Source of the DNA: a plasmid
Direction: 5' to 3' (one strand)
Assembly: GCF_056746865.1 (NCBI RefSeq)
Contig: NZ_JBWKMP010000005.1
Length of the DNA stretch: 64,000 bases
Positions 42,001 through 45,000 of the stretch are shown piece after piece; positions within the stretch are counted from its first letter, which is position 1, and each line of letters starts with the position of its first letter. A program made the position numbers.

Positions 42001-45000
42001 GTTTCGCCTATAATCAGAATATGTTTTTCAGAGTTTATCAAAACATCAATGGCTTCTTTCATCATATTCATATTCATATTCATATTCATATTTATCATAT
42101 TCGAGTGTTTTATTCTCATAATAGAATCCTGTCTTTGCTAATCAATAGTATCTTTATTGCGAGGATTATTCAGATACGTCTGTTTTATCGTGATTATCAA
42201 GGTCTGGATTAGTAATCACATTGCCTCCGGCAACCATGACTTTTTTTCCTCCAGCTTTAGGGAGATAAATTTCTGCAATTTTTGCTATTTCATCCATGAC
42301 TTCTTGTGTAAACAGGTTTGGAATGTCAACATGATTGTTACGGGCGATATCCACGCGGCGTTTAAACTCTGGTTCTTCAAACCAGATTATTTTGTTGGCA
42401 ATAAATGGTCGGCTAAATTCACTGGTTATAATTTCACGGATTGCAATATTTCTGGCTTTATTCTTCTTATCCCGGAGAGACACAATTTCTTCAGGGAGAA
42501 GAACAGGACGTTCTATTATTTCATCATTTCGTGTGCGGGAGGTTCCGGTGTTTCCTCCACCGCTCGAAACAGAACGTTTCGAGATTTTCATATCTCGCAC
42601 GCCAATCTCTTCTGAAATCTTTTTAGCCAGAGAATTTTTTGATTTCGGCGGATAGTAAAGCACAACACCACTGTTTTCAGTAAATGTGGTCCATCCTTCC
42701 TGACCGTACATATCGCTTTTTTGTCCTTGCCCTTCATTCTGAAGAATGAACACAAAGCGAAGGTTATAACCAGCTGTATAACCAACAGCGCGTTCAATGA
42801 CTTCAGATTTACCCATTGATGTAAACTCATCCAGGAGAATAAGGCACTGGTATTTCAGGTCCGGGTTATGTTCCGGCAGTTCACGACAGTTTTCATTAAC
42901 CAGTAATGAGAAGAAAAGGTTTACAATTTTCTCATGAGTGATTAAGGCATCCGGTGTCAGACCAAGATAAATTGACATGGGTTTTTTACGAATATCCCGG
43001 ATATCAAAATCACTGAAATTCGTCGCTTCAGCAGTAACAGGGTTGCTGAATATATTCAGTGGTGATGAAAAGTTCGTTTTTATACTTCCCCTTGTGCGAT
43101 CTGGTGCTGACATGAACTCAAAGAAGAATGATTTTGTTTTATCGCTAATCCAGCTACGATTTTCAACTTCCTGTCCCATCCATGCGGCGAGATCTTTTCC
43201 ATTATCGGGAATCGACGTTTTCAGTATGGCGCTGATGGAAACAAGGACGTCCGGTGCATTATGACCTTTGGCTTTCTGGTCCAGGTGAAAACGCTCCTTG
43301 TCCAGCAGGTAAAGCCCTAACCCGACAAAAAGGTTGCGTGCAGAATCAGACCATATAGGATCATCACTTGCCGGGATAAGGATTGCGGCAATTTTTGCCA
43401 GGTCCGTTTCACGAAGTAAATCACTGCGACTGACGCAATCCAGAGGATTCCAGCGGTGAGAGCGTATCTGTCCTTTAATTGCCTGGTCGATAGTTTCCGC
43501 GTATCCGGCGGGCGCAAAGAGAAAGCATTTTTGCCCTAATTCTTTTTGCCTGAATCCGGCTGATAAAAACCAGTTTTCAAGTTTGATATCCAGTATGACC
43601 ATACTTCCTGGATAGTTTACGCAGTTGGGGATAACAATCCCCACCCCTTTACCAGAACGTGTCGGGGCATAAAGAATTAAAAATTGTTGTCCGGCGAAAT
43701 AAATAAATTGTTTTTTGTATCTCCCCTTGAACATTTTACCGATGAGTATTGGTGGATGTTTGTAAGGTGATTTTTTATCCGGGAAAAAACCTGATTTACT
43801 CAGGTCCATATCAGTTGCGAGCCGGGCGTCACCGTAGATGATTTTTTTAGGCATAATCCCAATCACGACAATTAACATGAATATGGCAAAGAATATTAAT
43901 GGAACGCTGAATCCAAACCATGCCATAAAAACGAGTTTTTTATATTGTGGGTTGCCAGAAAATGTTGAGATTACAGAATGGAATGTATCCCACTTGAGCA
44001 AAGACATATCAACGGATGAATATCTTAATGCTGTGTATCCACCGAGATAGTTTGAGGCTATAAGCACACCCACAAGAAGCAGTAACAGGAAGAGAATTAA
44101 CCCCCCCATCTTTTTTGCATTCATAGTTATCTCCACAATTTACATTGTGCTAAAAAAACGATTTTTTTCTTCGGGTTCGTAATACAGTTCAGTCATTCTG
44201 GTATGGTTGAAAAAAAGAATGACATCAATTGATGTTTTTATCGTGCGCATGATGAGGTCCATATCAACAGTCATACCAACATCAGATTGTTTTACAATAC
44301 TTGCCAGTCGTGAAAATGAGGCATAAGTATTATTAGCATGAATGGTACTGATTGAGCCTTCATGCCCTGTATTAAGCGCCTCCAGATAACTCCATGCTTC
44401 GTTACCCCTAAGTTCAGCAAGAAAGATGTGATCTGGCTTTAATCGCATACACGCTTCAATGATTTCCTTCGCTTCAACGGTATTTTTTTTGTAGAAAAGC
44501 CGGATGTGGTTTGGATGCAGCGGCAGAGACATTTCCGGTACATCTTCAACGGTTATATAACGCCGTTCAGGTGGAAAGATATCTGCAATTGCCTTTGCTA
44601 TAGTTGTCTTACCGGAGCCAGTCCCACCTACGATTAAAAAATTAAGACGGTCTTTAACTGCCTCTCTTAAAAATTGAGCTTTAGATTGACCATCTGGACG
44701 CCGGGATAATTCATACAGGTAGCGTTGCCGTTCAGTCAGTATTGCTTCGTGTTTTGTTGCAATCCTGACATTATCAAAACGCCCTGTTCGGACATAATCA
44801 TCTATAGTGAAGCGTGTTAATGATGGCTTGCGGATAGATATCACAACGCTGTTATTTTCCGTTGCAGGTGGAATGATGATTTGTCCACGTTCCCCACCGG
44901 GAAGAACTACCGATGCAATGGGATTATCATGGCTAAGTGGTATTTTTATCTTTGATAAGTTCGTCAGAGTTTTGGCAAGTGTCATTAAATTATCAAAAGT

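What the first reader, a model, noticed from the sequence alone, without database searches (positions are those of the whole stretch)
42057..42101. Hexanucleotide repeat (CATATT)5 encoding (NM)n at the start of the pilM-like ATPase gene
Five perfect copies of CATATT (42063-42092), with a sixth after 3 bp, are read on the minus strand as AATATG repeats, giving MINMNMNMNMNMM with several in-frame ATG codons. Slippage would change repeat number without shifting frame, and the repeated ATGs could act as alternative starts, which may modulate expression or the N-terminus of this small P-loop protein.
Basis: seen in the sequence. Interest (0 to 1): 0.45.

Follow-up and report, generated by a model that had tools for sequence, protein, structure and literature searches.

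The report
Variable in-frame 6-bp repeat, IncI2 yfdA
A real, slippage-prone six-base repeat sits at the 5' end of a small accessory ATPase gene (yfdA-type, not pilM) on IncI2 resistance plasmids; its copy number ranges from 2 to 7 between otherwise identical plasmids, but it can only lengthen a floppy N-terminal tail, so it is most likely an ordinary, near-neutral coding microsatellite that could serve as a typing marker.

Summary
(AATATG)5 lies at 42092-42063 on the minus strand, with a sixth copy 3 bp upstream. At 31 nt it is the only long perfect short-period tract in the window; simulations reached at most 18 nt.

The window is an IncI2 plasmid backbone. The array sits in codons 10-19 of a 178-aa P-loop gene between virD4 and pilN.

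Among 451 IncI2 plasmids the copy number is about n=2 (60), 3 (21), 4 (62), 5 (~280), 6 (~25) and 7 (~4). One identical 6.2-kb flank haplotype carries n=3, 5, 6 and 7, and another carries n=4 and 6. This shows recurrent slippage.

The gene is not pilM. It shows no similarity to R64 PilM, and the window has a genuine pilM at 52176-52613. It belongs to a small orphan family (R721 "YfdA") also found in IncX-like and IncF transfer regions. Those homologs start exactly where the repeat ends.

The annotated ATG1 has an AGGA Shine-Dalgarno sequence; the internal ATGs have none. AlphaFold predicts the repeat segment as disordered. No allele can switch the gene off.

The most likely reading is a near-neutral in-frame VNTR. 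A tuning role is unproven.

The parts
42063..42092 (-). Perfect (AATATG)5 array, codons 10-19 (NM x5) of the annotated ORF
42096..42101 (-). Sixth AATATG copy (N7-M8), separated from the array by ATA (I9)
   Evidence: direct reading
42117..42119 (-). ATG1, the start of the longest ORF. PGAP chose the equivalent start in all 18 IncI2-type relatives examined where the gene is annotated (p1002-MCR1 has no annotation there).
42127..42130 (-). Shine-Dalgarno-like AGGA, 7 nt upstream of ATG1. The motif AGGATTCTATTATG is invariant in all 20 IncI2 loci compared.
   Evidence: duplex dG -4.1 kcal/mol against about 0 for internal ATGs
42060..42065 (-). ATG ATG (M19, M20), where all distant homologs begin. 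This is the ancestral N-terminus of the core domain.
41583..42119 (-). yfdA-type gene, 178 aa: a minimal RecA/ASCE-fold P-loop NTPase. RefSeq names it 'sigma 54-interacting transcriptional regulator', 'ATP-binding protein' or 'YfdA protein'.
41583..41590 (-). 8-nt overlap between the yfdA stop codon and the pilN start codon (ATGAATAA). Translational coupling is possible but only inferred.
42166..44136 (-). virD4 (type IV coupling protein), upstream neighbour. Its stop codon lies 46 nt before ATG1.
39947..41590 (-). pilN (type IVb pilus secretin lipoprotein), downstream neighbour
   Evidence: TIGR02520, 438.9 bits
52176..52613 (-). Genuine pilM of this plasmid (145 aa). It is not part of the repeat locus and is listed to show that the repeat gene is not pilM.
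   Evidence: E=3e-15 against R64 PilM; same gene order in TP114 and R721

Best explanation
The tract is an in-frame hexanucleotide microsatellite (a coding VNTR) at the 5' end of an IncI2 accessory gene of the YfdA family, which encodes a minimal P-loop NTPase.

Shown: replication slippage adds or removes whole AATATG units.

Inferred: translation most likely starts at the Shine-Dalgarno-led ATG1, upstream of the tract. On that reading each unit adds one Asn-Met dipeptide to a disordered N-terminal tail that precedes the conserved core.

Shown: the core begins at M19/M20, exactly where the repeat-free homologs in other plasmid types begin.

Shown: the unit is 6 nt and every unit carries an in-frame ATG. 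No allele can therefore frameshift or truncate the protein, so this is not a phase-variation switch.

Inferred: the polymorphism is near-neutral. The predominance of n=5 reflects clonal expansion of mcr-1-type IncI2 plasmids, with a slippage halo of n=3 to 7 around it. The short, more stable n=2 allele is found in more divergent backbones, including the prototype R721.

Inferred: the tract probably arose by tandem duplication of the hexamer containing or adjoining the original start codon.
For: Polymorphism:
- Record spans of 183, 189, 195, 201, 207 and 213 nt correspond to n=2 to 7.
- Combining identity bands gives about n2=60, n3=21, n4=62, n5~280, n6~25, n7~4 among 451 plasmids.
- The same pattern appears in 232 complete E. 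coli genomes, always on plasmids.

Recurrent slippage:
- One 0-SNP, 6.2-kb flank haplotype carries n=3, 5, 6 and 7. Another carries n=4 and 6.
- n=6, n=4 and n=3 each occur on backbones 14-70 SNPs apart.

Start codon:
- AGGA lies 7 nt upstream of ATG1 (dG -4.1 kcal/mol), whereas ATGs at codons 11-20 score about 0.
- The SD-ATG1 motif is invariant in 20 loci.
- PGAP uses ATG1 in every relative examined where the gene is annotated.

Core boundary:
- IncX-like and IncF homologs (141-163 aa) start at the Met aligned to M19.
- The two IncX-like starts examined have strong SDs (GAGGA or GGAG, dG about -6) and an in-frame stop 7-10 codons upstream.
- All distant hits align from about query residue 17-32, most from 19-22.

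Tail:
- AlphaFold2 gives mean pLDDT 84.7, with residues 1-12 below 50, the first helix from residue 17 and the core above 90.
- A few other family members have unrelated N-terminal extensions of up to about 18 residues, so extensions are tolerated.

No structural or regulatory signal:
- The leader RNA fold has z=+0.37.
- There is no Rfam hit.
- Predicted accessibility of the SD-to-AUG region is 0.50-0.53 for n=2 to 9.

Short-term stability: six records of one 64,997-bp plasmid (five labelled mouse gut, one chicken) all have n=4.
Against: - No direct evidence shows which ATG is used. AGGA is only a moderate SD. Non-SD initiation at AUGs in unstructured A/U-rich RNA is known in E. coli (my own knowledge), so nested isoforms starting inside the tract are possible.
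- Neutrality is inferred, not measured. Copy numbers 0, 1 and 8 or more were not seen, which could reflect either constraint or simple mutational dynamics.
- The gene overlaps the pilN start, so any change in YfdA translation could propagate to the pil genes.
- The function of YfdA is unknown. The gene is not annotated in the one IncI2 transposon-insertion study found.
- The population counts come from a redundant database and are not independent samples.
Confidence: 0.65

Rival explanations
1. The tract is a 5' leader rather than coding sequence. Translation starts at M19/M20 as in all homologs, and the repeat changes the length or composition of an A/U-rich, unstructured untranslated leader. 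It could act as an S1-type enhancer or a standby site for ribosomes.
For: The homologs' N-terminus aligns exactly with M19. Leader codons 5-6 are the most variable stretch locally, with 3 variable sites in 27 nt, 2 of them non-synonymous. The region is unstructured and only 21.7% GC.
Against: There is no SD before M19/M20 (dG +0.4), whereas ATG1 has AGGA at ideal spacing and is invariant. No stop codon separates ATG1 from the core in any allele seen. Any initiation at ATG1 or M8 must therefore read through the tract. A ribosome would also meet six or more in-frame AUGs before reaching M19.
Confidence: 0.2
2. The tract is a tuning knob. The ladder of in-frame AUGs is an SD-independent initiation platform, and copy number sets the amount or isoform mix of YfdA. 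Through the 8-nt stop/start overlap it would also set translation of pilN and the thin-pilus genes, and so adjust mating in liquid or in the gut.
For: There are multiple in-frame AUGs in unstructured A/U-rich RNA. yfdA overlaps pilN. Copy number changes recurrently. The IncI2 type IV pilus is required for broth and gut conjugation (PMC7508951).
Against: pilN has its own strong SD (dG -6.1). Predicted accessibility of the initiation region does not change for n=2 to 9. Both n=2 and n=5 plasmids are epidemiologically successful. The allele was stable across six records of one plasmid. No experimental data exist.
Confidence: 0.08
3. The tract is a DNA-level element: an array of AT-rich hexamers that binds a regulator (for example Fur-like NATWAT arrays, or H-NS) or forms part of a promoter, with occupancy or spacing depending on n.
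For: The sequence is very AT-rich (21.7% GC). GAATAT units loosely resemble Fur hexamers; this is my own comparison from memory (about 12 of 19 positions against the consensus) and was not tested. A promoter-like TTGATT-16-TATTAT overlaps ATG1.
Against: The promoter scan found fewer sites than the shuffles did (1 against 3.9 expected), and none inside the array. A 6-bp step is out of phase with the helical repeat. The array lies inside an ORF, 500 bp from the next gene start. There is no binding evidence.
Confidence: 0.05
4. The copy-number differences are assembly or sequencing artefacts.
For: One record (p1002-MCR1) does contain indel errors nearby.
Against: All differences are exact multiples of 6 inside the array. 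Each allele recurs in many independent records from different laboratories, hosts and countries. The errors in p1002-MCR1 are single-base homopolymer indels outside the array, and its array is an intact n=5.
Confidence: 0.01

Closest known systems
In-frame coding VNTRs or microsatellites of enterobacteria, such as the 6-bp and 18-bp loci used in E. coli O157 and Salmonella MLVA typing, some of them plasmid-borne (from my own knowledge)
   Same: The unit is a multiple of 3. Copy number is polymorphic between closely related isolates through slippage. The reading frame is preserved in all alleles. Copy number is homoplastic, so it is useful as a fast marker but not as a phylogenetic character.
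   Different: This repeat sits at the extreme 5' end of the gene. Each unit contains an in-frame ATG, and the array ends exactly at the ancestral start codon of the protein family. I found no description of it in the literature searched.
Simple-sequence contingency loci with multiple start codons, such as Haemophilus influenzae lic1A (CAAT)n (from my own knowledge)
   Same: A tandem repeat lies in the 5' coding region with several potential ATG starts nearby, and slipped-strand mispairing generates the alleles.
   Different: Those units are not multiples of 3, so copy number moves the ORF in or out of frame relative to each ATG and gives on, off or low expression states. Here the unit is 6 nt and every allele stays in frame, so there is no switch.
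   Same: The only shared feature is gene position, immediately upstream of pilN.
   Different: There is no sequence similarity (E=11). R64 PilM has an N-terminal hydrophobic segment and no P-loop. The window encodes its own PilM homolog elsewhere.
YfdA of R721 and its homologs in IncX-like, IncF and Yersinia plasmids
   Same: The same protein family: 26-61% identity to the more distant members aligned, conserved Walker A GxxGxGK(S/T), a conserved KRLIVV strand, and a predicted RecA/ASCE fold. All sit inside or beside conjugative transfer operons.
   Different: Only the IncI2 lineage has the MRIKHxNMI(NM)n extension. R721 itself has n=2.

Membership tests
In-frame coding VNTR / microsatellite | Head-to-tail tandem copies of a short unit whose length is a multiple of 3, inside an ORF | tested here: met
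   TRF reports period 6, 5.2 copies, 100% matches. The tract lies within ORF 41583-42119.
In-frame coding VNTR / microsatellite | Copy number polymorphic among related isolates, changing by whole units | tested here: met
   n=2 to 7 in 451 plasmids. Different n values occur on 0-SNP flanks.
In-frame coding VNTR / microsatellite | ORF stays intact in all alleles | tested here: met
   All 20 loci give full-length ORFs of 165-182 aa with the same core.
In-frame coding VNTR / microsatellite | The repeat is actually translated | not testable with these tools
   Only indirect evidence is available: the SD before ATG1 and no stop codon between ATG1 and the core. Proteomics or initiation-site profiling is needed.
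Phase-variable contingency locus (SSR switch) | A change in copy number turns expression on or off, by frameshift or by promoter spacing | tested here: not met
   The 6-nt unit never shifts the frame. No promoter elements flank the array. Every allele encodes the complete core.
Phase-variable contingency locus (SSR switch) | High-frequency reversible switching within a clonal population | not testable with these tools
   Read-level data are unavailable. Six records of one 64,997-bp plasmid all have n=4, which argues against very high rates.
PilM, type IVb pilus biogenesis protein (PF07419) | Sequence homology to R64 PilM / PF07419 | tested here: not met
   BLASTP gives E=11. PF07419 is not among the Pfam matches listed, and there is no PilM hit in NCBIfam. 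A different ORF, 52176-52613, matches R64 PilM at E=3e-15.
Sigma-54-interacting transcriptional regulator (RefSeq product name) | Full AAA+ sigma-54 activation domain (about 170 aa, with a GAFTGA loop) plus a DNA-binding domain | tested here: not met
   PF00158 matches only residues 14-58, the P-loop (E=2.5e-4, model positions 5-48 of 168). The sequence contains no GAFTGA (direct reading). At 178 aa there is no room for an HTH domain.
YfdA-like minimal P-loop NTPase of conjugative plasmids | Full-length homology to R721 YfdA and its relatives, with a conserved Walker A | tested here: met
   About 90% identity to RefSeq 'YfdA protein' entries. G38 and K44 are invariant across 28 family members. 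R721 carries the gene at the same position.
YfdA-like minimal P-loop NTPase of conjugative plasmids | NTPase activity and a role in transfer | not testable with these tools
   No functional data were found.

The most novel reading that the evidence does not exclude
The (AAUAUG)n ladder is a selected, SD-independent multi-start initiation platform. It arose by amplification of the gene's own start-codon hexamer. Copy number would tune the dose or isoforms of YfdA and, through the stop/start overlap, translation of the pilN-pilV thin-pilus genes. This would give IncI2 plasmids a heritable, reversible rheostat for mating-pair stabilisation in liquid and in the gut.
Probability: 0.07. Interest if true: 0.55.

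Novelty: new member of a known kind. Interest (0 to 1): 0.25.

Why it matters
IncI2 plasmids are major global vehicles of mcr-1 and blaCTX-M. Three practical points follow.

- **A fast marker.** This is a fast-evolving, easily PCR-sized marker in a backbone that otherwise changes very little. One 6.2-kb haplotype carries four alleles. The marker could help resolve recent transmission, but because it is homoplastic it must not be used for deeper phylogeny.
- **Annotation corrections.** The gene is neither pilM nor a sigma-54 activator. It belongs to a small orphan P-loop family that moves between the transfer regions of IncI2, IncX-like and IncF plasmids. Its function is unknown, and it is not annotated in the one IncI2 transposon-insertion study found.
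- **Origin of the tract.** The repeat ends exactly at the ancestral start codon, which illustrates how slippage at a start-codon hexamer can build an N-terminal extension.

Biologically the repeat itself is probably inconsequential.

Tried and rejected
- **PilM identity.** Rejected by direct comparison with R64 PilM and by finding the real pilM in the window.
- **Sigma-54 regulator (RefSeq name).** Rejected. Only the P-loop matches.
- **Defence or phage families.** PADLOC and PHROGs gave only P-loop-level hits (mad8, terminase, HerA) covering about 30-70 residues.
- **Solved structures.** Sequence and fold searches of the PDB gave only generic RecA/KaiC/RadA/FlaH/VirB11-like similarity, TM about 0.5. 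No specific function could be assigned.
- **RNA element.** No significant fold (z=+0.37) and no Rfam match at E<=1.
- **Promoter in or near the array.** One weak consensus match overlaps ATG1, which is fewer than chance expectation.
- **Effect of n on the initiation region.** Predicted accessibility is flat for n=2 to 9.
- **A 199-nt-span record as a possible frameshift allele.** The difference is two single-base deletions in the virD4 tail of an error-rich assembly. The array is an intact n=5.
- **Literature.** Searches for IncI2 with pilM, yfdA, tandem repeat, hexanucleotide or VNTR found nothing on this locus. The TP114 papers do not annotate the gene.
- **Records not available.** TP114 (MF521836) and AP005147 are not in the collections.
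Full report
**1. Observation**

On the minus strand the sequence reads ATG(42119) AGA ATA AAA CAC TCG AAT ATG ATA (AAT ATG)x5 ATG AAA GAA.
- The five perfect AATATG units occupy 42092-42063.
- A sixth copy lies at 42101-42096, separated from the array by ATA.
- The ORF 41583-42119 (minus strand, 178 aa) begins MRIKHSNMINMNMNMNMNMMKEAIDVLINSEKHILIIGETGTGKST.

Tandem Repeats Finder reports 42062-42092, period 6, 5.2 copies, 100% matches. This 31-nt tract is the longest perfect short-period tract in the window; the next longest are 17 nt or less. It also exceeds the maximum of 18 nt seen in 200 Markov simulations.

**2. Context**

The window is an IncI2 conjugative plasmid backbone.
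- The 1.2-kb region matches 516 PLSDB plasmids. Nearly all are classed as conjugative, and every relative examined is typed IncI2 / MOBP / MPF_T.
- The gene order on the minus strand is virB11 (44140-45195), virD4 (42166-44136), the repeat gene, pilN (39947-41590), then pilO.
- The repeat gene's stop codon overlaps the pilN start by 8 nt.
- The gene is AT-rich: 35% GC in the core and 21.7% in the leader plus repeat, against 40-46% in its neighbours.

**3. The repeat is polymorphic through recurrent slippage**

A 201-nt query centred on the array matched 451 plasmids. The record spans were 183, 189, 195, 201, 207 or 213 nt. Reading representatives showed n=2, 3, 4, 5, 6 or 7 units, always in frame. 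Two alleles are interrupted: AATATA in L004 and AATGTG in L008.

Combining identity bands from queries carrying n=5, n=3 and n=6 gives a self-consistent distribution of about n2=60, n3=21, n4=62, n5~280, n6~25 and n7~4. In 5,426 complete E. coli genomes the locus occurs in 232, always on plasmids, with the same spread.

I compared 20 loci over roughly 6.2 kb of flanking sequence.
- One 0-SNP haplotype carries n=5 (L009), n=7 (L004), n=6 (L026) and n=3 (L029).
- Another 0-SNP haplotype carries n=6 (L002, L025, L027) and n=4 (L003).
- n=6, n=4 and n=3 each recur on backbones 14-70 SNPs apart.
- n=2 is found in the more divergent backbones, including the prototype R721.

These are the usual microsatellite dynamics. 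Longer arrays expand and contract repeatedly, and short arrays are stable. Switching is not extremely fast, because six records of one 64,997-bp plasmid (five labelled mouse gut) all have n=4. An assembly artefact is excluded, because all differences are exact 6-nt multiples that recur across many independent studies. The one odd record owes its span to single-base indels elsewhere.

**4. What the gene is**

It is not pilM.
- R64 PilM (145 aa, hydrophobic N-terminus, no P-loop) shows no similarity to it (E=11).
- The window has a genuine PilM homolog at 52176-52613 (E=3e-15 against R64 PilM). That gene lies in the order pilL-pilM-ygeA-virB1, as annotated in TP114 and R721.

The RefSeq name 'sigma 54-interacting transcriptional regulator' rests only on a P-loop match covering residues 14-58.

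The protein belongs to a very small family: 38 representatives among 1.84 billion proteins. Its R721-derived name is YfdA.

Homologs at 26-61% identity sit in or beside other transfer regions:
- an IncX-like backbone, downstream of the T4CP, Cag12 and TrbM genes and upstream of topoisomerase III;
- IncF plasmids, between traU and trbC;
- a Yersinia plasmid, between virB2 and virB3/4.

AlphaFold2 with a 28-sequence alignment gives a confident model (mean pLDDT 84.7, pTM 0.81). The fold is a generic RecA/ASCE type (KaiC, RadA, FlaH, VirB11, PilT; TM about 0.5). PADLOC, PHROGs and PDB sequence searches add nothing specific. The function of the protein remains unknown. The TP114 transposon study does not annotate a gene between virD4 and pilN.

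**5. Where the protein starts, and what the repeat does**

All distant homologs begin at the Met aligned with M19. Database hits align from about residue 17-32 of the query, most from 19-22. In the two IncX-like homologs examined, that start is fixed by a strong SD (GAGGA or GGAG, dG about -6 kcal/mol) and by an in-frame stop 7-10 codons upstream.

The repeat therefore ends exactly at the ancestral N-terminus. MRIKHxNMI(NM)n is an extension specific to IncI2.

In IncI2, ATG1 has AGGA at a 7-nt spacing (dG -4.1 kcal/mol), and the motif is invariant in all 20 loci. The ATGs at codons 11-20 have no SD (dG about 0). The IncI2 context AGGATTCTATTATG resembles the IncX context AGGAAATTATTATG. This fits a scenario in which the original SD and start were retained and 54 nt were inserted or amplified just after the start. 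That scenario is inference only.

No allele has a stop codon between ATG1 and the core. The repeat segment is predicted to be disordered: residues 1-12 have pLDDT below 50, and the first helix starts at residue 17. A few other family members carry unrelated N-terminal extensions of up to about 18 residues. Leader codons 5-6 are locally the most variable positions, which indicates weak constraint.

The leader RNA is unstructured (z=+0.37). It has no Rfam match. Its predicted accessibility around the SD and AUG does not change for n=2 to 9.

**6. Mechanism, with status marked**

- Shown: slipped-strand mispairing changes n in steps of 6 nt.
- Shown: every allele preserves the frame and the full core, so no on/off switching is possible.
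- Inferred: translation starts at ATG1, and each unit adds an Asn-Met pair to a floppy tail.
- Inferred: the effect on function is negligible, and the allele frequencies reflect clonal history plus slippage.

The rivals are a leader-only model with the start at M19/M20, a tuning model with multi-AUG initiation coupled to pilN, and a DNA-binding-array model. None is excluded, and none has positive evidence.

**7. Novelty and score**

I found no description of this locus in the searchable literature. In kind it is an in-frame coding VNTR, a well-known class that includes plasmid-borne examples in enterobacteria (my own knowledge).

The distinctive details are that each unit carries an ATG and that the array abuts the ancestral start codon. 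Its practical value is as a fast but homoplastic marker for IncI2 (mcr-1) plasmids, and as a correction to current annotation.

Interest is 0.25, and the category is 'new member of a known kind'.

Noticed in passing
window 16650-16874 (within ORF 14225-18538, + strand): A second in-frame tandem repeat: an 18-bp unit x12.5 (also scored as 54 bp x4.2), encoding (E/A)QATEQ repeats inside a 1437-aa ORF. The ORF may correspond to the protein annotated 'LPD7 domain-containing protein' in R721; this was inferred from its size only, and no comparison was made. It is likely another VNTR of the IncI2 backbone. Its copy-number variation was not examined.
   Followed up: partly
window ~42431-42931 (3' third of virD4): 38 of the 83 differences between the window and the common mcr-1-type backbone (L009) over 6.2 kb fall within about 500 bp of virD4. 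This suggests a recombination patch, and it explains why the best 1.2-kb matches are only 97.5% identical although the repeat region itself is 100% identical to many plasmids.
   Followed up: partly
window ~41880-41936 (yfdA residues ~62-80, CDIYKRHEHLPLLKHH): A second indel-prone stretch in the same gene. Other IncI2 alleles carry in-frame deletions here, for example 45 nt in L008, with shorter variants in P0005, P0006, P0008 and P0020. It maps to a less confident loop of the model and contains only short direct repeats (AACACC x2).
   Followed up: partly
window 41583-42119, and loci L010-L016: The YfdA family looks like a mobile accessory cassette of transfer operons (IncI2, IncX-like, IncF traU-trbC gap, Yersinia virB2-virB3/4 gap). 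It is AT-rich compared with its neighbours and more variable than virD4 or pilN (3.8 against 1.3-1.7 variable sites per 100 nt). The RefSeq product name 'sigma 54-interacting transcriptional regulator' appears to be a misnomer. The function is unknown.
   Followed up: partly
window 42118-42145 (- strand): A promoter-like TTGATT-16 nt-TATTAT whose -10 element overlaps ATG1. If it were active, the transcript would start downstream of ATG1 and the first AUGs would be M8 and those of the repeat. It is a consensus match only and is below chance expectation.
   Followed up: no
window 59604-59671, 61366-61452, 1166-1217, 5860-5923: Other direct repeats reported by TRF: 33-bp units x2-2.5 and 24-25-bp units x2. 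They could be iteron-like or binding-site repeats.
   Followed up: no
L019 (NZ_CP021205.1, p1002-MCR1) 640-700: This RefSeq plasmid record has single-base deletions that fragment virD4 and leave yfdA unannotated. These are probably long-read homopolymer errors, so indels in this record should be treated with caution.
   Followed up: yes
window 52176-53854 (- strand): The plasmid's genuine pilM (52176-52613) and a 411-aa pilL/TcpQ-like ORF (52619-53854) lie upstream of virB1, separated from pilN-pilV by the whole virB/virD4 block. In TP114, pilM was scored non-essential and pilL essential for in situ transfer (PMC7508951, supplementary file 3).
   Followed up: partly
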